Of a DNA stretch of 64,000 nucleotides, positions 1,994-52,388 are shown one piece after another. The stretch comes from Escherichia phage PECP14. The stretch lies in the sequence record OQ870555.1; one strand, written 5' to 3'. The notes beneath the pieces are model-generated. The model did not search any database. It saw only the letters and a list, made by a program, of their open reading frames with translations, and had not been told where the DNA came from. The translations under genes and the position numbers were made by a program. Every line of letters begins with the position of its first letter. Position 1 is the first letter of the stretch.

Positions 1994-4900
1994 TGGCACT
2001 TAAAACTAAAATTATTGTACAGCAGATTCTGAACATAGATGACACTACAACTACTGCTAGTAAGTATCCTAAATATACAGTAGTTTTAGGTAATTCTATT
2101 AGTTCTATTACTGCTGGTGAATTAACTGCTGCTGTAGAAGCCTCTGCTGCTTCTGCTGCGGCAGCAAAAGATTCTGAAATAGCAGCTAAGGAATCTGAAA
2201 CAAATGCTAAGGACTCGGAGAACCTAGCTGCAATTTATGCTACTTCTTCTGAAACATCTGCAACTCAATCTGCGGCATCTGCCGCGGAAGCTGAGAGACA
2301 AGCTGGTCTGTCACAAAAGAGTGCTGAAGCATCCGCTACATCGGCGGAAGAATCTAAAGGATTCAGGAATTCTGCTGAATTAGCTGCTCAAAATGCGGAG
2401 ACCAGTCGTAGACTTGCCGAACAAGCTAAAACTGCGGCTCAACAAGCTCAGACAGCTGCAGAAACTGCTAAGACTGGTGCTGAAACAGCAAAAGCAGGTG
2501 CAGAAGCTGCTGCTACAACTGCTGGAGAACATGCTGCTTCCGCTAAACAATCAGAATTAAATGCTAAAGAATCAGAAACTAATGCGGCTGGTTCTGCTGT
2601 AGAAGCAGGAGATAAGGCTGTAGATGCTACTACTGAGGCAAATCGTGCTAAGGCTGAAGCCGATCGCGCAGCTCAGATTGTAGATAGCAAGCTGGATAAA
2701 GAAGATATATCTGGTTTCATCAAAGTTTATAAGACAAAAGCAGAAGCTGATGCAGATGTTGCAAATCGTGTTCTGGGTGAAAAGATTCTAGTCTGGAACC
2801 AAACTGATTCAAAATATGGTTGGTATAAGGTTGCTGGTACTGCTGAGGCTCCTGTCCTAGAATTAGTAGAAATTGAACAGAAACTCGTATCAATCAATAA
2901 CGTTCATGCAGATGATGCTGGTAACGTACAGATCACTCTTCCAGGAGGTAACCCTTCTTTATGGTTAGGTGAAGTTACTTGGTTCCCTTACGATAAAGAT
3001 TCGGGTGTTGGATACCCTGGTGTTCTGCCAGCTGATGGTCGTGAAGTACTTCGTGTTGACTATCCTGATACTTGGGAAGCCATCGAAGCTGGTCTAATTC
3101 CTTCTGTTTCAGAAGCTGAATGGCAGGCCGGTGCAACTCTCTACTTCTCCACTGGTGATGGTTCCACAACCTTCCGTTTACCAGATATGATGCAAGGGCA
3201 GGCTTTTCGTGCACCTACTAAGGGAGAAGAAGACGGCGGTGCTATTAAGGAACAGATTCCTTATATCACTACTGTGAATGGAATTGGTCCTGCTGATGAT
3301 ACTGGAGCTATTAAGCTTCCTTACGTGGCAATGGTCAATGGAACTATTCGTCCAGATGAGAACGGAAATCTAGCACTAGGTAACGTAGTAACCAAAAACG
3401 TTTGGAACGGTACTGATGGAGAAGTCTTACTAAGGGGTGCATTTGGTTTAGGTGGTGCTGGTATAATTCTTAATGAACCAGATCTAGTATCCTTCTTTAA
3501 AGCAATGCGTGCTTTCGGTTCAGGGTATTATAGAAATGATAACGAGAGTAACTTAGTAATCCCTAAGTATTCTGCTGGATTCTACTCTAAAGTTGGAGAT
3601 ACCCATACCTTTATTTGTTCTGCCTATAGCAATGGTGTTGCTTTTGTAGCTTCTGCTTCTGATAGAGATTTAGATGAAGAATCTACAGTACATACTAATA
3701 TTCTTTATGGTACTGCAAATAAGCCTGATTTAAATAATGATACTCAAGGTGTCTTAGGTCTCGATAAAGGAGGAACAGGAGCTTCTACAGTTAGTTCTGC
3801 CAAAACTAACCTAGAAGTGGATAGAATAAAGCAGCTAGTAGGAGGAACACATATAACCTCTCAGGATCAAAATATAGTGTTTATGGTTCAGGACACTAAA
3901 ACCTGGGGGGTATACGACCATTCTGAAAACAAGTGGATATCTTTACCTGTTGAACATGGGGGTACTGGAGCTACTGAGCCAGTTCAAGCTAGAAAAAATT
4001 TAGGGGCTGCAAGTGCCGGTATTAACTCCGATATTACTCAGCTACGTAATATGGAGGGTTGGCCTCTTAGCATTAAGAACGGTGGTATTATTACTCGTAA
4101 ATACCACGCAGTTCCTTCGGATGGGTTTTACTTAGGATCGGAAGTTTTTTCTGCTCAGGTCCAACTGGATAATTCAGAGGATCCAGATACCCCTCGTTTA
4201 GAGGCATTATTTTACGCTGAAGGTAACTATGCCCAATCTCGTACTGAAAGGGCTACAGTAGCTGCTTATAGGCGTACTGCAGATGGTTCGTTAACTGCTA
4301 CTAAATATGCTAACCTGTACATGGATTCAGGGGCTTGGAATGCAGAACGTATGCAAGCTCTAGGGTATTCTAAAGGTTGGGACGATGATTCCTTTGGTTT
4401 CCTCGCTCCTTTTCAAGCTTCTGATGTAACGGGCAATGATCATGGATTCGTACCTATTATTAGTGCTATGACTCAATCCACAGGTGGCTACCCAATGAGG
4501 GCTACTACTGGATTAATATCTCGAGGTACTAGTACTTGGCCTGCCTATGCATTTAGACTTCGTGGAGATTCTAATTGGGGATGTACCTATCAGTTCCACA
4601 TGACAGGGGATATTGACGGATGGGGGTCAGACTATAATAACGTTGTCTTTAACTTTACTTACACAAAAAATGCGGTGTCGGATATCAATCTAAAAGATAA
4701 TATTCAAGACGTATCGGGTGAAGAATCTCTTGAAAACATTGAAAAAATGGAGTTCAAGAAATTCACCTATAAGTTTGATAAGAAAAAGAGTATTAGACGT
4801 GGTGTTATTGCACAACAAATAGAGTTGATTGATCCTCAATATGTTAAAGCTATTGGCAATCCTGAAACCGACGATATTACTTTAACCCTAGATACCAATC

Positions 4901-45731: not shown

Positions 45732-46049
45732 ATGATTTTTCATATTCTGATTGATGATGTGCGTAACCTTCATGGAATGGACATTATCATTCGAACCCCC
45801 GAAGCCGCTGTTGAGTTTCTGAATAAAACCGATACCACAGGTCATTTCGTTTATATGGATAACGATCTGGCTGTAGATGGTATGGAAGGTTATCAAATTC
45901 TTCGTTTACTCCTAGAATTTGGTCAGAGACCCAAGAAAGTGGTACTAGTAACCTCGAACCCAGTAGCTAAAGAGACCATGCGTAATGATCTCTTAGACGA
46001 AGGGTATCAAGAAAGCCCTAATCGTATTGAGTACGATTGGCCGGAGTAA
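45732..46049 (+). CDS. hypothetical protein, possible receiver (CheY-like) fold
   Basis: 105 aa; alternating hydrophobic/acidic pattern (IFHILIDDV...YMDNDLAVDGMEGYQILRLL...VVLVTSNP) resembles a stand-alone receiver domain. Inference only. Confidence 0.5.
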   Translation: MIFHILIDDVRNLHGMDIIIRTPEAAVEFLNKTDTTGHFVYMDNDLAVDGMEGYQILRLLLEFGQRPKKVVLVTSNPVAKETMRNDLLDEGYQESPNRIEYDWPE

Positions 46050-46054
46050 ATAAA

Positions 46055-46504
46055 ATGAAGGCAGCTTTGCTTTTAATAGCTGCCCTAACCTATAGCTTCA
46101 ATAGTCATGCGACCTACGACTCAAAGCAGATTGATTGCATTGCAAAAAATATCTACTTCGAAGCACGAGGTGAGGGCACTAAAGGAATGATCGCAGTTGC
46201 ACAGGTTACTAAAAACCGTGTTAACTCTGGTACTTTTCCTGATTCTTACTGTAAAGTAGTATATCAGTCTAACCAGTTCTCTTGGGTGGCCAAGAGACCA
46301 AAAGTTGATAAAACCGATGAGGCTTGGCAAGTTGCTAAGAATTTAGCTAGAGTGATATACTACGTTGATTTACCACAAGATCCAACACATGGAGCGTTAT
46401 ACTTCCATAGTGGTAAAGATAAACCGTACTGGACAAAGAAGTTTAAGAAAACAACGAAGATTCAAGGCCATACGTTTTACAAGCCTGTGGTTAAGAAAAC
46501 TTAA
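46055..46504 (+). CDS. secreted cell-wall hydrolase, SleB/Hydrolase_2-like
   Basis: ATG at 46055; signal peptide MKAALLLIAALTYSFNSHA; domain ...CIAKNIYFEARGEGTKGMIAVAQVTKNR...SYCKVVYQSNQFSW.... Confidence 0.65.
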   Translation: MKAALLLIAALTYSFNSHATYDSKQIDCIAKNIYFEARGEGTKGMIAVAQVTKNRVNSGTFPDSYCKVVYQSNQFSWVAKRPKVDKTDEAWQVAKNLARVIYYVDLPQDPTHGALYFHSGKDKPYWTKKFKKTTKIQGHTFYKPVVKKT

Positions 46505-46573: not shown

Positions 46574-46744
46574 ATGAAATCAGTTGTAATTATTGGTGTT
46601 AATACTCGTGGTATCCGTACTACGAAAACAGTTAAAACTACTAACGTTGCTGAAATTACTACAAACCCTAAGAAGTTTGATTTCGCCAAAGTCTCGGCAG
46701 TTATGACAGAACAATCTTTTAACCAAGCACTGGGAATTAAATAA
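46574..46744 (+). CDS. hypothetical small protein (56 aa)
   Basis: Not in the supplied track (under 60 aa); ATG with RBS GAGAGGAAG; coupled by TAATG to the next gene. Confidence 0.4.
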   Translation: MKSVVIIGVNTRGIRTTKTVKTTNVAEITTNPKKFDFAKVSAVMTEQSFNQALGIK

Positions 46745-47193
46745 TGGAAGAGAATATTCTAGATGTTTTGCGTAGGGCTTTGCAGGAATCTAAGGTTGAT
46801 GGTTCTGATAAAGAAGTAGCTAAAAGCTACCAGACCATAATCGGAGATCTTCAGCGTGTTGATAAAGACTTCATTACTTCTGAACAGTTTGTATCTTATC
46901 TAAAAGCTCAACTGAAAAGCATTAATCAGACGAAAGCTAAACTTCACGGTCAAGACCTTGATAATTATAGCTTGCAGTCTGCTCAGTATGAATATATACT
47001 GAACAAATGGTTACAACAGTATCTGCCGCCTCAGCTTTCTGATTCTGAGATTCGCAAATACTTTGCAGAATTAGTTAAGTTGAACCCTGGGATTACGAAG
47101 GGTATGCTGATGAAAGCGATTAAGGAAGAATTCCCTGGTCGTTATGATGGTGGTATTGCTGCTCAAGTTGCTGGCGAATTCAATAAAAATTGA
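46744..47193 (+). CDS. GatB/YqeY-domain protein
   Basis: 149 aa; ...NKWLQQYLPPQLSDSEIRKYFAELVKLNPGITKGMLMKAIKEEFPGRYDGGIAAQVAGE... matches the YqeY pattern (yLPqqLs.eE...GRaDG). Confidence 0.6.
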   Translation: MEENILDVLRRALQESKVDGSDKEVAKSYQTIIGDLQRVDKDFITSEQFVSYLKAQLKSINQTKAKLHGQDLDNYSLQSAQYEYILNKWLQQYLPPQLSDSEIRKYFAELVKLNPGITKGMLMKAIKEEFPGRYDGGIAAQVAGEFNKN

Positions 47194-47194
47194 T

Positions 47195-47223
47195 TTGCTA
47201 AACGCTTCAAAATTCTGTATAAT
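47195..47223 (+). promoter_or_regulatory. early promoter module directing transcription into the ORF-free segment
   Basis: TTGCTA-17 nt-TATAAT; the -35 overlaps the YqeY-like stop codon. Confidence 0.65.
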
Positions 47224-48057
47224 AGATTCATAAATTAGAGAACAGCGAGCCGATTACGCTGAGTGAGTTTAGTGATTCCTAATAGGATAGCTATTCCACT
47301 GAATAGAGTCGGTGAGTTGGAGACTAGTAAGTACTCTGAGAGAGGCTACGAGCTAACGCTTATTGCTATTGATAGGGAACTGAAAATCTGCGGAAAACTC
47401 GGGAGCTGTCCCGAAATCTCGTAAACTCTTCTCTAGTTTATGTTAGTGGGGTGTCGAACTGACTTATGTGATAACACTGCCAGATGCTCACAGGCTGACA
47501 TTGAGCTTTACTGCTCCTTCTGGAAAGAATCGGATAACTCGGGCTTATACCGGATAAGCATTCGCTGCTGGAGTACATACTATGACGGTTCAGGAGGTAC
47601 GCCACCTGATCAGTATTAGGTTAGAATCGAAACAGCTAAACCACGAGGAAACCTGACGGCCTCAACCAAACTCGGAACTCGGGATCACTGCCTAGTGTGT
47701 ACCCCGTTTAACCTGAGACTAGGCATCCAGCTTCGCATCGAAAATCGGAGGTGCGATTCTAACAGACCGCGTAACTATGAGAGTGGGAAACGCTGACATG
47801 AGAGATGTCACTAATGGTGCCCAATAGTACAGGTAATTCGCGATAATTCCTGTTGAGCGGCAGCAGTAGGCTGGGAGTCATGACCTAAGCCTAACCGAGT
47901 TCTTCACATACGGAGAACATAACCACAAAGTCACCCTGACTTAAACTGGAAGATATTGTCTGACGGAAGGGCTGCAGAGCTTAATCTGAGGGGGCTGACC
48001 CTACCTACCGTCGGGTATCTTTAAGAGCTTTTATAAGAGTTCTTAAAAATACCTAAA
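47224..48057 (+). ncRNA. candidate large structured non-coding RNA (ORF-free, promoter-driven, ends at tRNA-Arg)
   Basis: No ORF of 60 aa or more in any frame between 47194 and 48158; visibly more G+C-rich than flanking DNA; recurring AACTCGG(G) motif and several short hairpins. Identity unknown. Confidence 0.4.
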
Positions 48058-48132
48058 CGGGGTGTAGTCTAAGGGATAGGCAGGAGTCTTCTAAATTCCT
48101 TTATGCAGGTTCGAATCCTGTCACCTCGGCCA
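48058..48132 (+). tRNA. tRNA-Arg (anticodon UCU)
   Basis: Hand-folded: acceptor CGGGGTG/CACCTCG, anticodon arm GGAGT-CTTCTAA-ATTCC, T-arm GCAGG-TTCGAAT-CCTGT, encoded CCA. Confidence 0.75.
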
Positions 48133-48158
48133 ATTTTATTAACTGCTAGGAAAATAAA

Positions 48159-48359
48159 GTGAAAACACGATATATAGTAAAAGTAGTAGGTGAACATTCA
48201 CAAGTAAATACCACCGATGTTACAGCGCTAGCATTTGAAGTAGTCTCCGGTATAGTCATATTTCATAACGGAGATATCAAAGCTCCTGAATTTGCTGTGG
48301 ATGCTAGCCTGTTTATTTCTGCAACTAAAGTAACTGTAGTAGCTAACTCTTCTAAATAA
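48159..48359 (+). CDS. hypothetical small beta-rich protein upstream of the SPFH gene (GTG start)
   Basis: 66 aa ORF ending 11 nt before the SPFH gene. Confidence 0.45.
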   Translation: MKTRYIVKVVGEHSQVNTTDVTALAFEVVSGIVIFHNGDIKAPEFAVDASLFISATKVTVVANSSK

Positions 48360-48370
48360 TAAGGAAATAT

Positions 48371-49315
48371 ATGTTTACTAAAAACACTAAAGAACTGACT
48401 TCCGATCAAAAAGTAATTCGTACTATTAAACGTTGGGGTGTTGGTGCTGTAGTTGGTCTTGGCGCTCTTATTCTGGCTCTCAATTCCTATACAGTTGTTC
48501 AGGACGGTACGGTTAAAACTCAGACTTTCCTGGGTAAAGTTAGTCCTAATCCTGTATTGCCGGGGTTCCATATTGTCAACCCATTCGCCTCTTTTGATAC
48601 TTTTAGTACGAAAGATATTTCTATGAAACTGGATAAACTTCAGGTTCCTAGCCAGGATAAGTTTAAGTCTACAGTTGACATTACCGTTATGTTGCAGTTT
48701 GATGGTGCTAAAGCTCCTATGAACCGTGTTAACGCAGGTACTCAGGATCAAGCTCTGAACAAGTACGTTGAAGAGAAGATGCTGTCTACGATTCGTGAGT
48801 TTGGTAAGTCTGTACCAAAAGCACAAGATCTGTTCGACGCTAAGATTCAGGCTCAACTGCAAACCGCTATTCAGCAAGAAGTAGAAGAGTATGCGCGTCC
48901 TTATGGTTACACCGTTAAGCAAGTATTCCTTCAGGATATTACTCTGCCACCGGTAATCATGGAACAGGTACAGAACACCAAAGTTCGTGAAGAACAAGTT
49001 AACGCTGCAAAAGCTGAACTGGCTCGTGTTGAACAAGAAGCACAGCAGAAAGTTAAGCAAGCTGAGGCAGATCGTTCCGCTCGTGAAAACATGGCAGTAG
49101 CTAACGAACGTGACGCAGATGCTAAACTGTACGCAGCTAAGAAAGAAGCTGAAGCTAACGCCGCTCTGCAACGTACCATTACTCCTGAAATGATTCGTTG
49201 GAAGCAGCTGGAAGTTGAAATGCTTCGTGCTGAAAAATACCAAGGGGGTGTACCACAGACTGTTGTCGGTACTGGCTACGATGGTCAAATGATCATGGAT
49301 ATGCGTAACAAGTAA
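48371..49315 (+). CDS. SPFH/band-7 (stomatin/prohibitin-like) membrane protein
   Basis: 314 aa; N-terminal TM helix (WGVGAVVGLGALILAL), SPFH body, C-terminal Ala/Glu/Gln-rich coiled coil; RBS AAGGAAAT. Confidence 0.75.
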   Translation: MFTKNTKELTSDQKVIRTIKRWGVGAVVGLGALILALNSYTVVQDGTVKTQTFLGKVSPNPVLPGFHIVNPFASFDTFSTKDISMKLDKLQVPSQDKFKSTVDITVMLQFDGAKAPMNRVNAGTQDQALNKYVEEKMLSTIREFGKSVPKAQDLFDAKIQAQLQTAIQQEVEEYARPYGYTVKQVFLQDITLPPVIMEQVQNTKVREEQVNAAKAELARVEQEAQQKVKQAEADRSARENMAVANERDADAKLYAAKKEAEANAALQRTITPEMIRWKQLEVEMLRAEKYQGGVPQTVVGTGYDGQMIMDMRNK

Positions 49316-49338
49316 TAGTTACACGTAATCTTCGAACC

Positions 49339-49375
49339 AAGCCCGCGTTTCCTTCGAGAGCGCGGGCTTTTCTGT
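49339..49375 (+). terminator. rho-independent terminator after the SPFH gene
   Basis: AAGCCCGCG-(13-nt loop)-CGCGGGCTT followed by TTCTGTATTT. Confidence 0.7.
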
Positions 49376-49385
49376 ATTTAAGGCA

Positions 49386-49430
49386 AAAGAAAAAGCCCCT
49401 TACCTTTCGGCAGGGGCTTTTGTTTTTTGG
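49386..49430. terminator. bidirectional terminator between convergent plus- and minus-strand genes
   Basis: AAAAAGCCCCT-(loop)-AGGGGCTTTTGTTTTTT, A-run upstream and T-run downstream. Confidence 0.7.
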
Positions 49431-49635
49431 TTTAGAACCATACTCTCTTGTTACAACAACCACTCATACGGGAGACCAATCTTGACTGAAAATCTACTCT
49501 AGGGGGCAGGATAAGAGTAGGCTTAAAGGCAAACGGATTGAACACCGGTATTTGTGTAAACATTGCTGGAGAGCAACAACGTGCTACAGGTATTGGGCAG
49601 CACGAAACAGATTTTCTGCAACACATAATTCCTCC

Positions 49636-50052
49636 TTAGGAGTTATTACCGCCATTTTGAGCTTTTGCAACTTGGCTTTGGCAGAAGCTATTAAACTTAC
49701 CCATAAGTGCTACAAGCTGTTTCCCATCCTCTGTCTTTGCGAAGTCTTCGAAAAGGGCTAGTACTGCCTGTCCTTCCGCAGAAACCTGCGGTTGTTGGGT
49801 TTGTTGCTGAACTTGCTGCTGAGGCACCTGTTGCTGCATTTGTTGAGGCATTTGCGACTGCCCGCTCATTTGCTGCATCATTTGCATAGGACTCACACTT
49901 CCAGGGTTTTGCTGGAGTTGCTGCTGCATCTGTTGCGCTTCTGCTAAACGCTGTTGCAACTGTTGTAGGTAAGGGTTATCCAGACCCGGAATGGGCTGCT
50001 GAGAGCCCATTGGTTGATTAAATCCGTTGTTCACAAAACCATATTTACTCAT
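49636..50052 (-). CDS. Gln-rich low-complexity protein
   Basis: 138 aa, about 35 percent Gln; RBS GGGGAGGAG before the ATG. Confidence 0.5.
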   Translation of the reverse strand: MSKYGFVNNGFNQPMGSQQPIPGLDNPYLQQLQQRLAEAQQMQQQLQQNPGSVSPMQMMQQMSGQSQMPQQMQQQVPQQQVQQQTQQPQVSAEGQAVLALFEDFAKTEDGKQLVALMGKFNSFCQSQVAKAQNGGNNS

Positions 50053-50074: not shown

Positions 50075-51076
50075 TTAGGCTGGTACTTTAGCCTGTAGAG
50101 CTGCTAGAGTCTGAGTAATTGCACCCAGGCTTACAGCGATTTGATTGATTACCTGACCGTTTGCACCGCTACCTGCAGCGATTGCTTCACGCAGACGGCA
50201 TTCATTCAGTTCGTCTTGGATACGCGCAGTAGTTACACCAGCAATCGCAGTCTGAAGTTCGCAGCAGCACTCAGCAAGCTGACGTTCGATAGCGTTCTGG
50301 TTAGCACACATCTGAGCCTGAACAGCGGCAAACTGGTTGTTAGTCTGAAGAGACTGCTGGAAAGCAATCTGGGCAGAGTCAAACTTGTCTTGTGCACGAG
50401 CGATCTGGTTAGCAGCGAAAGCTTGATCCATCTGGCGAGAAAGATCGAACTGACCCTGAATAACGTTACGAGTTTCCTGACAGATCTGGTTGGACAGGTT
50501 AGCACCAGTACCATACACAGTAGTCAGAATCTGTTGAGTGCTAGAAGCTTGAGCAGCACCTACACCATTAACAGCGCTCAGAACAGCACCAGTACCTTGA
50601 TTCGCTTCGGTACGAGCAGTGTTGATTGCAGCTAGAATACTTGCAGTATCCTGGTTAGATAGGATAGCATCCACAGCAGTTCCCTCAGCGGCAACACCAG
50701 CACCACGTCCGAAACCACCGAAACCACCGAATCCGCCTGTTAATAGAGCACCAATCAGGATAGCTCCGAATAGACCCATACCTTCACCGCCGAAAGCACC
50801 ATTTGCTACTGCTGGGTAACCACCCATCAGACCTGGGAAGCCGCTAGTGAATACGTTTACTGGTTCTTGCATTTTATGTTTCCTATGTTTATGACAGCCC
50901 TCATGGTCGTCATCTTCATCATCTTCATCGTCATCATCGTGATCACGATGTTTCTTTTCGTAGGCCTTGACCTTCTCCCACTTATGTTTGTCTGATTCCT
51001 CATGACGTCTCAGTTCTGCTGCGACTTCACTGACGGTCTCAGGTTTCTTAGTTGCTTCTTCTGTCATTTTTGACAC
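50075..51076 (-). CDS. acidic His/Asp-rich protein with glycine-zipper membrane segment and Gln/Ala-rich C-terminal region
   Basis: 333 aa; HRDHDDDDEDDEDDDHEGCHKHRKHK; LFGAILIGALLTGGFGGFGGFG; C-terminal ECCCELQ and CRLRE; RBS AGGAGGTG. Confidence 0.55.
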   Translation of the reverse strand: MSKMTEEATKKPETVSEVAAELRRHEESDKHKWEKVKAYEKKHRDHDDDDEDDEDDDHEGCHKHRKHKMQEPVNVFTSGFPGLMGGYPAVANGAFGGEGMGLFGAILIGALLTGGFGGFGGFGRGAGVAAEGTAVDAILSNQDTASILAAINTARTEANQGTGAVLSAVNGVGAAQASSTQQILTTVYGTGANLSNQICQETRNVIQGQFDLSRQMDQAFAANQIARAQDKFDSAQIAFQQSLQTNNQFAAVQAQMCANQNAIERQLAECCCELQTAIAGVTTARIQDELNECRLREAIAAGSGANGQVINQIAVSLGAITQTLAALQAKVPA

Positions 51077-51273: not shown

Positions 51274-51302
51274 TTGCTTGAATGCTAAATTCTCTGTATA
51301 AT
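51274..51302 (+). promoter_or_regulatory. early promoter module upstream of the NadR-like gene
   Basis: TTGCTT-17 nt-TATAAT, then ..ATAAATTTGAGAGAGGAATCAAAT-ATG. Confidence 0.65.
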
Positions 51303-51332
51303 ATATTTATAAATTTGAGAGAGGAATCAAAT

Positions 51333-52388
51333 ATGATTAAGACTGGTCTAGTAATTGGTAAGTTCGCACCATTAACGCGTGGTCATATTAACCTAATAAA
51401 CACAGCAGCAACTATGTGTGAACGAGTTATTGTTGTAGTTAGTCATGATAATCGTTGGCTGGATAAGCAGAACACACGTGATCAGGAAGTATTACAGTTA
51501 AAGAATCGACTTCGTTGGTTAGAACAAACTTACGCGGATATTGAGCACGTTTCGGTAGAGTACATTATTGAAGATGATATTCCTGAATATCCGAATGGTT
51601 GGCCGGAATATGCTAGAATCCTTAATGAAAATTATGGACATTTGCCTGAGATCACCATTTTCTCTAGCGAACTAGACTATGATGCAGAATATAAGAAATA
51701 TCTGCCGAAGTTTGGTCATTATATTGTAGATTCTGATCGGACTCGTGTTCCAATCTCAGCTACAATGATTCGTAATGATCTTATGAAGTATTGGGAGTTT
51801 CTTCCTAGCGTAGTTCGTAAAGATTACGTGCGTAAGGTTGTAATCATTGGGACTGAAAGCTCAGGCAAAACAACTTTAACAAAGTACCTTGCGAAATTAT
51901 ATAATACTTCGTGGGTAGAAGAATATGGTCGTACTTACTGCGAAGTTGATCTAGTTGGTAATGAAGAACTCCTGACTAGCGAGGACTATAATAAAATTGC
52001 ATTCAGGCACAAAGAGCTAGAGTTTGAGGCAGAACGTACTGCAAATAAGATCATGTTTGTAGACACAAATGCTTTCATTACAGAGTTTTATCACAGACTT
52101 TACGAGCATCGTAAAAATCCGGTTGTAACAGCTATTGCTAAAGAAGAGCATTATGATTTAGTTATAGTTTTAGCACCTACTGTTAAGTGGGTAGATGATG
52201 GTTTACGTATTAACTCCGATCGTTCAATTACTTCTGAACTGTTCGAGCAGATGAAGAAAGAATTTCCTAATCAGTTTCCAGAAGGGCGTACTGTATATAT
52301 TGACTCCCCGGACTATAAGGTTCGTATGGACGAAGCAGTAAACGCAGTAGACTGGCTGATTCATCACTTTAACGTTGGAGAGTTTTAA
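51333..52388 (+). CDS. nadR: bifunctional NMN adenylyltransferase / ribosylnicotinamide kinase (NadR-type)
   Basis: N-terminus GLVIGKFAPLTRGHINLI (nucleotidyltransferase H-x-G-H); central P-loop VVIIGTESSGKTTL (kinase); ATG at 51333. Confidence 0.8.
   Translation: MIKTGLVIGKFAPLTRGHINLINTAATMCERVIVVVSHDNRWLDKQNTRDQEVLQLKNRLRWLEQTYADIEHVSVEYIIEDDIPEYPNGWPEYARILNENYGHLPEITIFSSELDYDAEYKKYLPKFGHYIVDSDRTRVPISATMIRNDLMKYWEFLPSVVRKDYVRKVVIIGTESSGKTTLTKYLAKLYNTSWVEEYGRTYCEVDLVGNEELLTSEDYNKIAFRHKELEFEAERTANKIMFVDTNAFITEFYHRLYEHRKNPVVTAIAKEEHYDLVIVLAPTVKWVDDGLRINSDRSITSELFEQMKKEFPNQFPEGRTVYIDSPDYKVRMDEAVNAVDWLIHHFNVGEF

What the first reader, a model, noticed from the sequence alone, without database searches (positions are those of the whole stretch)
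48159..49315. SPFH/band-7 membrane protein with a small upstream partner ORF
A 314-aa SPFH protein (TM helix, SPFH body, coiled coil) is preceded by a 66-aa beta-rich ORF ending 11 nt upstream. This resembles the bacterial small-partner plus SPFH operon arrangement (NfeD-type), and SPFH proteins organise membrane microdomains. Any role in superinfection exclusion or membrane remodelling is inference.
Basis: partly seen in the sequence, partly recalled or inferred. Interest (0 to 1): 0.5.

Follow-up and report, generated by a model that had tools for sequence, protein, structure and literature searches.

The report
T5-type phage SPFH membrane gene

Summary
The window is a T5-like phage, 99.8% identical to Salmonella phage Sepoy. 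Both ORFs exist exactly as described. The 314-aa protein is a clear SPFH/Band_7 protein and the ortholog of T5.080. It has an N-terminal TM helix, an SPFH domain, a long coiled-coil helix and a conserved C-terminal tail. Full-length fold matches are to cage-forming erlin, prohibitin, HflK/C, stomatin and QmcA.

The 66-aa ORF is very probably a real gene. A 49%-identical ortholog sits in the same place in another T5-like lineage, and its conserved core shows third-codon-position bias. It is not an NfeD-type partner:
- It has no NfeD profile signal and no TM helices.
- It is absent from T5, from all non-T5-like phages carrying this SPFH, and from phages whose SPFH is 312/314 identical.
- Cellular relatives of this SPFH clade have no NfeD neighbour.

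The N-tail is positively charged, which predicts a periplasm-facing, HflK/C-like orientation. T5.080 knock-down has no fitness cost in the laboratory. Function is unknown; I favour a periplasm-facing homo-oligomeric cage that modulates inner-membrane proteins.

The more interesting item lies upstream. The ~830-nt T5 "RNAX" stable RNA is co-transcribed with tRNA-Arg and these genes, shows covariation, and has no Rfam family.

The parts
47195..47223 (+). Sigma-70-like promoter (TTGCTA-17-TATAAT), at the position of T5 promoter 'P 16-17'
   Evidence: Consensus scan, 10 of 12 matches. T5 annotates a promoter at the equivalent place upstream of rnaX.
47224..48057 (+). Homolog of T5 'RNAX' (T5s08), a long stable non-coding RNA of unknown function. 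It forms the 5' part of the same transcription unit.
   Evidence: T5 annotation. Homology across T5-like phages. MFE z-score -2.77. The 3' domain has 13 of 47 pairs with compensatory changes, against 6.9+-1.4 in shuffles, 0 of 500. No Rfam match.
48058..48132 (+). tRNA-Arg (anticodon UCU)
   Evidence: ARAGORN; Rfam tRNA 49.3 bits; T5t25 ortholog.
48148..48151 (+). Shine-Dalgarno-like AGGA, 7 nt before the GTG start of orf66
   Evidence: Read from the sequence. The Sepoy annotation marks an RBS here. The L065 ortholog keeps AGGAAAAGAAAAATG.
48159..48359 (+). orf66: a small, soluble, probably beta-rich protein gene (PHROG 11609). It is an optional cassette found only in T5-like phages.
48361..48365 (+). 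Shine-Dalgarno-like AAGGA, 5 nt before the ATG of the SPFH gene
   Evidence: Read from the sequence; RBS annotated in Sepoy.
48371..49315 (+). SPFH/Band-7 membrane protein, 314 aa, ortholog of T5.080 (PHROG 200, mislabelled 'lipoprotein')
48434..48496 (+). Codons 22-42: the single N-terminal transmembrane segment. It follows a basic tail (6 K/R in residues 1-23).
   Evidence: Hydropathy and charge count; AF2 helix 11-37.
48488..48943 (+). Codons 40-191: SPFH alpha/beta domain
   Evidence: Pfam Band_7 covers residues 50-224; AF2 secondary structure; Foldseek.
48950..49237 (+). Codons 194-289: long coiled-coil helices (CC1 and CC2 of cage-forming SPFH proteins)
   Evidence: AF2 helices 194-269 and 272-289. 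Full-length alignment to erlin, prohibitin and HflK/C chains.
49238..49312 (+). Codons 290-314: C-terminal tail (YQGGVPQTVVGxGYDGQMIMDMRxK), conserved across phage families. It is a candidate cap or oligomerisation element.
   Evidence: Conservation. Low monomer pLDDT. The assigned role is inference.
49339..49378 (+). Intrinsic terminator ending the unit: a 12-bp stem followed by a T-run
   Evidence: Scan. Annotated in Sepoy, with a second convergent terminator that maps to about 49396-49416. T5 annotates an 'efficient bidirectional' terminator here.

Best explanation
The locus is the conserved early, accessory transcription unit of T5-like phages. Its order is promoter, RNAX stable RNA, tRNA-Arg(UCU), optional orf66, SPFH gene (T5.080 ortholog), terminator.

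Shown: the 314-aa protein is a bona fide SPFH protein with the full architecture of cage-forming family members. It has a TM anchor, an SPFH domain, long coiled-coil helices and a conserved C-terminal tail. It belongs to a clade under strong purifying selection that has moved horizontally among unrelated virulent phages. The clade also has chromosomal relatives in Morganellaceae and methylotrophs, and none of these loci has an NfeD gene.

Inferred: the protein inserts N-in, so the SPFH and coiled-coil parts face the periplasm as in HflK/HflC. It then assembles into a homo-oligomeric dome that fences a patch of inner membrane. Its most likely job, held at low confidence, is to modulate turnover or organisation of inner-membrane and envelope proteins during infection, with an FtsH-type client as the leading single candidate. 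This would be a dispensable fitness function.

orf66 is a real, fast-evolving, cytoplasmic small-protein gene. It sits as an independent cassette between the tRNA and the SPFH gene. It is co-transcribed with the SPFH gene but is not its NfeD-type partner, and its own function is unknown.
For: Identity and context:
- The region is 99.8% identical to phage Sepoy, and 503 T5-like records match it.
- T5 annotates rnaX, tRNA-Arg, T5.080 and a bidirectional terminator in the same order.
- A promoter-like site lies at 47195 and a terminator at 49339. No terminator-like site lies between them on the + strand; one weaker promoter-like match (9 of 12, at 48573) lies inside the SPFH gene.

SPFH protein:
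- Pfam Band_7 E=2.9e-19.
- AF2 mean pLDDT 79 with TM, SPFH and long helices.
- Foldseek gives full-length hits (~260-310 aligned columns) to erlin1/2, prohibitin, HflK/C, stomatin and QmcA, at E=1e-14 to 1e-9.
- 736 phage records in Demerecviridae, Straboviridae, Grimontviridae and Vibrio phages carry a homolog, at 60-100% identity for most. All top hits among 5.8 billion proteins lie on phage-sized contigs.
- dN/dS is 0.09.

No NfeD anywhere in the clade.

Topology:
- The N-tail carries 6 K/R in 23 residues, and a net-positive tail recurs across 23 family members.
- QmcA and YqiK, which face the cytoplasm, have 0 K/R in their tails; HflK and HflC have 2.
- In E. coli only the cytoplasm-facing QmcA and YqiK are linked to nfeD genes. 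Periplasm-facing HflKC is not (PMC10434171).

Dispensability: T5.080 was scored 'Not Fit' in CRISPRi-ART (PMC11879866, supplementary file 16).

orf66 is a real gene:
- A 63-aa ortholog at 49% identity lies in the same position in another T5-like lineage.
- Only 0.7% of shuffles keep the frame open.
- Differences in the core fall 6/4/15 by codon position.
- The start codon switches between GTG and ATG with the RBS retained.
- One phage carries an in-frame 9-nt duplication.

orf66 is optional:
- The indel is clean and always at the same junction.
- 194 records carry orf66, against about 420 records whose SPFH is >=90% identical.
Against: No experiment addresses topology, oligomeric state or client. 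The positive-inside argument is weak, because HflK and HflC themselves also have K/R on the C-terminal side of their TM segments. By sequence the closest solved relative is cytoplasm-facing QmcA (E=4e-5), not HflK/C (blastp E=0.019). The 'Not Fit' score shows no required role under laboratory conditions, so a function cannot be read from the phenotype. orf66 shows relaxed constraint (dN/dS 0.50). It carries a nonsense codon at position 4 in phage MSP1, and its AF2 model is unreliable (pLDDT 41). An OB-like fold therefore cannot be formally excluded. orf66 stays immediately upstream of the SPFH gene (8-11 nt gap) in two diverged lineages, which is compatible with some functional link.
Confidence: 0.6

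Rival explanations
1. orf66 is a minimal NfeD-like (OB-fold) partner that binds the SPFH protein and is needed for its assembly or function, as in qmcA-ybbJ, yqiJ-yqiK or archaeal stomatin-NfeD operons.
For: The two genes are on the same strand, 11 nt apart, and co-transcribed. The adjacency is preserved in a second T5-like lineage, where orf63 ends 8 nt before the SPFH gene. The low-confidence model has only beta strands. Its size (~66 aa) is similar to an NfeD C-terminal domain (own knowledge).
Against: Pfam gives no hit at E<=10. hhalign against YbbJ and YqiJ gives probability 0.1%, and a profile search of the PDB finds nothing related. The protein has no TM helices: the highest 19-residue hydropathy is 1.39. 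It is absent in T5 and Tequintavirus, and in phages with a 312/314-identical SPFH. It is also absent next to the SPFH gene in T4-like, Grimontviridae and Vibrio phages and in cellular relatives. The SPFH N-tail is the same whether or not orf66 is present. The predicted periplasmic SPFH domain would be out of reach for a protein without a signal peptide.
Confidence: 0.06
2. orf66 is not a gene. The 66-codon frame is a chance ORF in the tRNA-SPFH spacer or part of an RNA element.
For: It has a GTG start. There are no homologs outside T5-like phages among 5.8 and 1.84 billion proteins. Among close relatives, 11 variable sites are non-synonymous and 8 synonymous. Phage MSP1 has a stop at codon 4, and several annotators skip the ORF. 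AF2 pLDDT is 41.
Against: The frame is open in two lineages at 64% nucleotide identity, and only 0.7% of shuffles stay open. The core at residues 26-57 has 25 differences, of which 15 are at third codon positions. The RBS is retained and the start codon is exchanged between GTG and ATG. One phage has an in-frame 9-nt duplication. All other frames are full of stops. The ORF fills the inserted cassette almost exactly.
Confidence: 0.12
3. The SPFH protein faces the cytoplasm, like QmcA, YqiK and flotillin. It acts as a membrane-microdomain or membrane-stress scaffold, for example countering membrane-depolarising abortive-infection systems, superinfection or premature lysis, rather than as an HflK/C-like periplasmic cage.
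For: The best sequence match among solved structures is QmcA (E=4e-5; blastp 1.5e-6). In T4-like phages the gene lies beside the lysis-inhibition gene rI. In T5-like and Grimontviridae phages it lies within 2 kb of a SleB-like wall hydrolase. Both contexts suggest an envelope or lysis-related role.
Against: The basic N-tail is conserved across the family, unlike the uncharged tails of QmcA and YqiK. There is no NfeD partner, whereas cytoplasm-facing bacterial SPFH proteins usually have one (PMC10434171). PADLOC finds no match to known defence-system proteins. The neighbours mentioned (RI, secreted hydrolase) act in the periplasm, which fits a periplasmic domain at least as well.
Confidence: 0.2

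Closest known systems
Phage T5 gene T5.080 and its orthologs (RB43 ORF139c, 44RR ORF098c, Aeh1 ORF064c; PHROG 200)
   Same: It is an ortholog: about 91% aa identity to the T5 type and 62-80% to the T4-like and Grimontviridae versions. In T5 it has the same position after tRNA-Arg and RNAX and before the bidirectional terminator. The Pfam SPFH hits for the T4-like genes were already listed in 2006 (PMC1524935).
   Different: The window (Epseptimavirus type) carries the extra orf66 cassette that T5 lacks. The database label 'lipoprotein' is wrong for all of them, because they have no Cys and so no lipobox.
E. coli HflK/HflC (periplasm-facing SPFH cage around FtsH)
   Same: Single N-terminal TM segment, predicted N-in orientation, SPFH domain plus long coiled coil plus C-terminal segment, and no nfeD gene.
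   Different: The phage has one gene instead of a K/C pair. Sequence similarity is marginal (blastp E=0.019 to HflK). There is no evidence for FtsH binding, and the phage protein lacks HflK's ~80-residue cytoplasmic N-terminus.
E. coli QmcA-YbbJ (SPFH-NfeD complex, PDB 8z5g)
   Same: QmcA is the closest solved sequence relative (E=4e-5). It is similar in length (305 aa) and architecture. A small gene is adjacent to the SPFH gene.
   Different: YbbJ has an N-terminal hydrophobic region ahead of its C-terminal NfeD-type domain (sequence) and lies downstream of qmcA; orf66 has neither that region nor any NfeD signal. QmcA has an uncharged N-tail and faces the cytoplasm.
Chromosomal SPFH genes of Providencia and Morganella (55-59% identity) and of methylotrophic Gammaproteobacteria (35-40%)
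   Same: They belong to the same clade, with a TM segment and the conserved NSYT(I/V)VxDG motif immediately after it in the Providencia and Morganella homologs (the methylotroph homologs diverge here). They are standalone genes without NfeD.
   Different: They sit in a cellular context, with neighbours such as an Asp/Glu racemase, a Mur-ligase-family protein, a PASTA-domain protein and oxidoreductases. They have no tRNA, RNAX or orf66.

Membership tests
SPFH / Band 7 superfamily (PF01145) | Significant match to the Band_7 profile above the curated cut-off | tested here: met
   70.2 bits against a cut-off of 23.6, E=2.9e-19, residues 50-224.
SPFH / Band 7 superfamily (PF01145) | Membrane anchor, alpha/beta SPFH fold, then long coiled-coil helix, as in cage-forming members | tested here: met
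   AF2 model at pLDDT 79. Foldseek full-length matches to erlin, prohibitin, HflK/C, stomatin and QmcA at E=1e-14 to 1e-9.
SPFH / Band 7 superfamily (PF01145) | Assembly into a large ring or dome oligomer on a membrane | not testable with these tools
   Only a monomer was modelled. The conserved C-terminal tail is compatible with oligomerisation but does not prove it.
NfeD (PF01957) SPFH-operon partner, tested on orf66 | NfeD C-terminal domain detectable by profile | tested here: not met
   Pfam gives no hit at E<=10. NCBIfam gives none. hhalign against YbbJ and YqiJ gives probability 0.1%. A profile search of the PDB gives no NfeD.
NfeD (PF01957) SPFH-operon partner, tested on orf66 | Transmembrane helices N-terminal to the soluble domain | tested here: not met
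   The highest 19-residue Kyte-Doolittle mean is 1.39, with no hydrophobic stretch. Compare the YbbJ and YqiJ sequences.
NfeD (PF01957) SPFH-operon partner, tested on orf66 | OB-fold beta-barrel three-dimensional structure | tested here: inconclusive
   The AF2 model has pLDDT 41 and pTM 0.24. That is too poor for a fold search, so none was run.
NfeD (PF01957) SPFH-operon partner, tested on orf66 | Conserved co-occurrence with the SPFH gene across the clade | tested here: not met
   orf66 is present in 194 of about 420 close T5-like records. It is absent with a 312/314-identical SPFH. It is absent in T5, T4-like phages, Grimontviridae and cellular relatives.
HflK/HflC | N-in / C-out topology with a periplasmic SPFH domain | tested here: inconclusive
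   A basic N-tail is conserved in 23 family members, and control counts were made on the E. coli proteins. This is a prediction only.
HflK/HflC | Two paralogous subunits encoded in tandem, with specific sequence relationship to HflK or HflC | tested here: not met
   The phage has a single gene. blastp to HflK gives E=0.019 and to HflC E=1.0. No NCBIfam HflK/HflC model hit.
HflK/HflC | Binds and regulates FtsH | not testable with these tools
   Needs a pull-down or a structure.
Bacterial lipoprotein (the RefSeq and PHROG 200 label) | Signal peptide ending in a lipobox with an invariant Cys | tested here: not met
   The window protein has no cysteine, and 21 of the 23 family members have none.

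The most novel reading that the evidence does not exclude
The phage SPFH protein builds a periplasm-facing HflK/C-like cage that captures a host inner-membrane client such as FtsH. This would rewire membrane-protein proteolysis or protect the envelope during infection. orf66 would be an accessory cytoplasmic factor that acts on the cage's basic N-terminal tails in the lineages that carry it. The co-transcribed, covariation-supported RNAX would be a new class of large structured phage RNA, functionally tied to the same early module.
Probability: 0.1. Interest if true: 0.6.

Novelty: already known. Interest (0 to 1): 0.25.

Why it matters
SPFH cages are a current topic in membrane biology, and nobody knows why many unrelated virulent phages keep a highly conserved copy (dN/dS 0.09, at least 736 phage records). 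The analysis narrows the question. This is an NfeD-less clade, probably periplasm-facing, that E. coli and Salmonella do not themselves encode. It is dispensable in the laboratory and recurs near periplasm-acting envelope genes. That gives a cheap set of experiments: topology fusions, an FtsH pull-down, and deletions tested on wild hosts. As a scan finding it is nevertheless an already-annotated gene, and the proposed partner relationship does not hold. The co-transcribed RNAX is the more unusual object in this stretch.

Tried and rejected
1. Structure comparison of orf66 with NfeD OB folds. The AF2 model from 3 sequences reached pLDDT 41, so no fold search was run.
2. Distant homologs of orf66.
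- The word-indexed search found only 2 near-identical clusters.
- The exhaustive phmmer search added one true ortholog, P0124, plus repeat proteins.
- The striking E=7e-26 hit, P0123 (5219 aa), is a ~30-residue motif (HGGDIKSPELKIDAK...) repeated many times. The score is inflated by the repeats and is not homology.
- P0126 and P0127 are repeat proteins with no informative Pfam domain.
- There are no paralogs in the window.
3. IMG/VR gave only 2 extra orf66 copies.
4. NCBIfam and PADLOC gave no hits for either protein.
5. Rfam gave nothing for the 47.2-48.05 kb non-coding stretch.
6. Literature searches for phage SPFH function, T5.080 and RNAX found only annotation-level mentions. The 'prohibitin' hit in PMC11879866 was the word 'prohibiting'.
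7. I looked for any conserved small neighbour of the SPFH gene across phage lineages. None is shared, and none is an NfeD.
8. The ~430-aa neighbours in methylotroph loci looked like long NfeD proteases by size. They are oxidoreductases and Mur-ligase-family proteins.
9. A motif scan for RNAX in IMG/VR returned only T5-like contigs.
Full report
**What the window is.** The region 47100-49500 is 99.8% identical to Salmonella phage Sepoy (Demerecviridae, Epseptimavirus). It matches 503 T5-like phage records. The window also holds 28 tRNA genes, as expected for the T5 tRNA region.

**Observation check.** ORF 48159-48359 (+, GTG start, 66 aa) and ORF 48371-49315 (+, ATG, 314 aa) exist and are 11 nt apart. 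Each has a Shine-Dalgarno-like sequence at a proper distance (read; annotated in Sepoy).
- The 314-aa protein passes Pfam Band_7 at 70.2 bits, cut-off 23.6.
- An AlphaFold2 model built on 23 homologs has mean pLDDT 79. It shows a TM helix (11-37), an alpha/beta body (40-191), helices at 194-269 and 272-289, and a low-confidence C-terminal tail.
- Foldseek aligns the whole chain (~260-310 columns) to the cage-forming erlin1/2, prohibitin, HflK/C, stomatin and QmcA structures at E=1e-14 to 1e-9.
- By sequence the nearest solved relatives are QmcA (E=4e-5) and the prohibitins.

**The transcription unit.** Phage T5 annotates the same arrangement. The order is promoter 'P 16-17', rnaX (a 719-nt 'stable RNA with unknown functions'), tRNA-Arg, T5.080 (labelled 'lipoprotein... 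contains single transmembrane domain'), and an efficient bidirectional terminator.
- In the window, a TTGCTA-17-TATAAT site lies at 47195-47223.
- A 12-bp-stem terminator lies at 49339-49378.
- Nothing terminator-like lies between them on the + strand.
The SPFH gene is thus the last cistron of an RNAX, tRNA-Arg, (orf66), SPFH transcript.

**Is the 66-aa ORF a gene?** Probably yes.
- Evidence against coding comes first. Among close relatives variation is low: 19 variable sites, 8 synonymous and 11 non-synonymous. One phage, MSP1, has a stop at codon 4.
- An exhaustive phmmer search then found a 63-aa protein, P0124, at 49% identity. It lies in a different T5-like lineage, again directly between tRNA-Arg and the SPFH gene. 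It has an ATG start and an AGGA box.
- The two orthologs are 64% identical in DNA, yet both frames are open. Only 0.7% of shuffles stay open.
- The conserved core (residues 26-57) has differences distributed 6/4/15 over the three codon positions.
- Overall dN/dS is 0.50, against 0.09 for the SPFH gene.
- A GTG-to-ATG start exchange and an in-frame 9-nt duplication fit a coding sequence.
- The protein has no TM segment, no signal peptide and no family assignment beyond PHROG 11609.

**Is it an NfeD-type partner?** No test supports this.
- Pfam shows nothing even at E<=10.
- hhalign of the orf66 family against E. coli YbbJ and YqiJ gives probability 0.1%.
- A profile search of the PDB finds no NfeD.
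- orf66 lacks the N-terminal hydrophobic region seen in YbbJ and YqiJ, the two E. coli NfeD proteins.

The genetics argue more strongly against a partner role. orf66 is a discrete cassette.
- After ...TTATTAACTG, genomes carry either a ~20-nt spacer or the ~212-nt orf66 cassette.
- All four combinations occur. Epseptimavirus-type SPFH occurs with orf66 (window, L060) and without it (L016 and L017, SPFH 312/314 identical). Tequintavirus-type SPFH occurs with it (L032) and without it (T5, SE11).
- The SPFH N-terminal tail is the same in both states.
- About 194 phage records carry orf66, against about 420 whose SPFH is >=90% identical.
- No shared small neighbour and no NfeD occurs next to the SPFH gene in T4-like, Grimontviridae or Vibrio phages.

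**The SPFH clade.**
- tblastn finds the protein in 736 phage records. These are T5-like phages, T4-like phages of enterobacteria and Aeromonas (RB43, 44RR type), Grimontviridae (Proteus 3H10_20, Salmonella SE131) and Vibrio phages.
- Identity between T5-like, T4-like and Grimontviridae versions is 62-92%, including the C-terminal tail YQGGVPQTVVGxGYDGQMIMDMRxK.
- The top 120 of the 189 clusters found among 5.8 billion proteins lie mostly on phage-sized contigs.
- A scan of 185,579 species genomes found chromosomal relatives in Providencia and Morganella (55-59%). It also found many in methylotrophic and other Gammaproteobacteria (35-40%).
- The neighbours of these cellular genes are housekeeping genes, and none is an NfeD. 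They include an Asp/Glu racemase, a Mur-ligase-family protein, a PASTA-domain protein and oxidoreductases.
- The SPFH hits in RB43, 44RR and Aeh1 were already tabulated in 2006 (PMC1524935).
- The 'lipoprotein' label (T5, RefSeq, PHROG 200) is wrong. The protein has no cysteine.

**Topology and mechanism (inference).**
- The tail before the TM segment carries 6 K/R in 23 residues. A net-positive tail is found in essentially all of the 23 diverse members examined, although the tail sequence itself varies.
- In E. coli, the cytoplasm-facing QmcA and YqiK have no K/R before their TM segments. Periplasm-facing HflK and HflC do.
- Only QmcA and YqiK are linked to nfeD genes; hflKC is not (PMC10434171).
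- I therefore favour N-in insertion, with the SPFH and coiled-coil parts in the periplasm and assembly into a homo-oligomeric dome.
- This fits the lack of NfeD. It also fits the recurring neighbourhood of periplasm-acting genes:
  - a signal-peptide-bearing SleB-like hydrolase in T5-like phages, with a homologous hydrolase near the gene in Grimontviridae;
  - the lysis-inhibition gene rI in T4-like phages.
- The client is unknown. FtsH is the leading single candidate by analogy with HflK/C and prohibitin (own knowledge of those systems). I give that only about 0.3.
- In T5, a dCas13d knock-down of T5.080 was scored 'Not Fit' (PMC11879866, supplementary file 16). The function is therefore accessory under laboratory conditions.
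- PADLOC finds no relation to known defence proteins.

**Aside: RNAX.** The ORF-poor stretch 47224-48057 is the homolog of T5 RNAX.
- It folds more stably than shuffles (z=-2.77, 0 of 20 shuffles as stable).
- It is conserved in a mosaic fashion among T5-like phages. In some, an HNH endonuclease gene is inserted between it and tRNA-Arg.
- An alignment of 24 distinct copies of its 3' domain (window 47779-48057) gives a consensus of 47 pairs at 98.2% pairing.
- Of these, 13 pairs carry compensatory changes, against 6.9+-1.4 in column shuffles (0 of 500) and 0-4 in slid controls.
- It has no Rfam family, and a conserved-motif scan of IMG/VR returned only T5-like contigs.

**Verdict.** The gene is already annotated in many phages. 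The NfeD-partner interpretation fails every test that could be run. Novelty is 'already known' and interest is low to moderate.

Noticed in passing
window 47224-48057 (+): This is the homolog of T5 'RNAX' (T5s08), a ~0.7-0.8 kb stable RNA of unknown function, directly 5' of tRNA-Arg and co-transcribed with orf66 and the SPFH gene. MFE z-score is -2.77. The 3' domain (47779-48057) has 13 of 47 consensus pairs with compensatory changes, against 6.9+-1.4 in shuffles (0 of 500). It has no Rfam family, and a motif scan found it only in T5-like contigs. This large structured phage RNA next to a tRNA is arguably more unusual than the given finding.
   Followed up: partly
L010-L012, L016, L017, L066 (relatives); equivalent to window ~48057: Several T5-like relatives carry a 169-aa (510-nt) ORF inserted between RNAX and tRNA-Arg; it was not profile-scanned here, and phage MSP1 annotates homing endonucleases in the same region. 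T5, L013, L039 and L065 carry a tRNA-like T-arm (GGTTCGAATCC) in the middle of RNAX that the window lacks. The locus is an insertion hot spot.
   Followed up: partly
window 48371-49315: RefSeq, PHROG 200 and the T5 annotation all call this protein 'lipoprotein'. It has no cysteine and so cannot have a lipobox. The label is a propagated error.
   Followed up: yes
window 46037-46504 (+): This is a SleB-like cell-wall hydrolase (Pfam Hydrolase_2, E=4e-26) with an apparent signal peptide. RefSeq labels it 'endolysin'. A homologous hydrolase also lies within ~1 kb of the SPFH gene in Grimontviridae-type loci (L040-L042), so the two genes recur together in unrelated phages.
   Followed up: partly
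window 45732-46049 (+) and 46744-47193 (+): A cREC_REC (cyclic-phosphate processing receiver) domain protein (E=1e-14) and a YqeY-like protein (25.3 bits, just under the 27-bit cut-off; RefSeq calls it 'tRNA amidotransferase') lie upstream of the RNAX and tRNA region. This may be an RNA-metabolism cluster.
   Followed up: no
window 51282-52388 (+); L003, L012, L060: A NadR-like NMN adenylyltransferase/kinase gene is followed in Sepoy by a PnuC-like transporter gene. In phage polluks and in L060 it sits directly after the SPFH gene. In RB43-like phages an NMN adenylyltransferase/Nudix gene is also the next gene downstream, so the SPFH-NMNAT adjacency recurs.
   Followed up: no
window 49636-50052 (-) and 50075-51076 (-): Two compositionally odd proteins lie on the opposite strand; these two plus the adjacent small T5.079-like ORF (49432-49626) are the T5.077-079 homologs. 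One is a Gln-rich 138-aa protein, which Sepoy labels 'cAMP-dependent protein kinase catalytic subunit' without any Pfam support. The other is a 333-aa protein with an Asp/His-rich stretch and Gly-rich GGFGG repeats. Both have PHROGs of unknown function. The block is missing in polluks and L060.
   Followed up: no
L075, L073, L105, L114 (bacterial loci): Cellular relatives of this SPFH clade sit next to peptidoglycan-related genes in three unrelated groups. These are an Asp/Glu racemase in Providencia, a Mur-ligase-family protein in Methylophaga and a PASTA-domain protein in Desulfocapsaceae. This may hint at an envelope link, or it may be coincidence.
   Followed up: no
L003 (RB43) 2417-3310: The RB43 copy of the SPFH gene diverges from all others after residue ~290 and lacks the conserved C-terminal tail. 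This looks like a frameshift or a sequencing error in that record.
   Followed up: no
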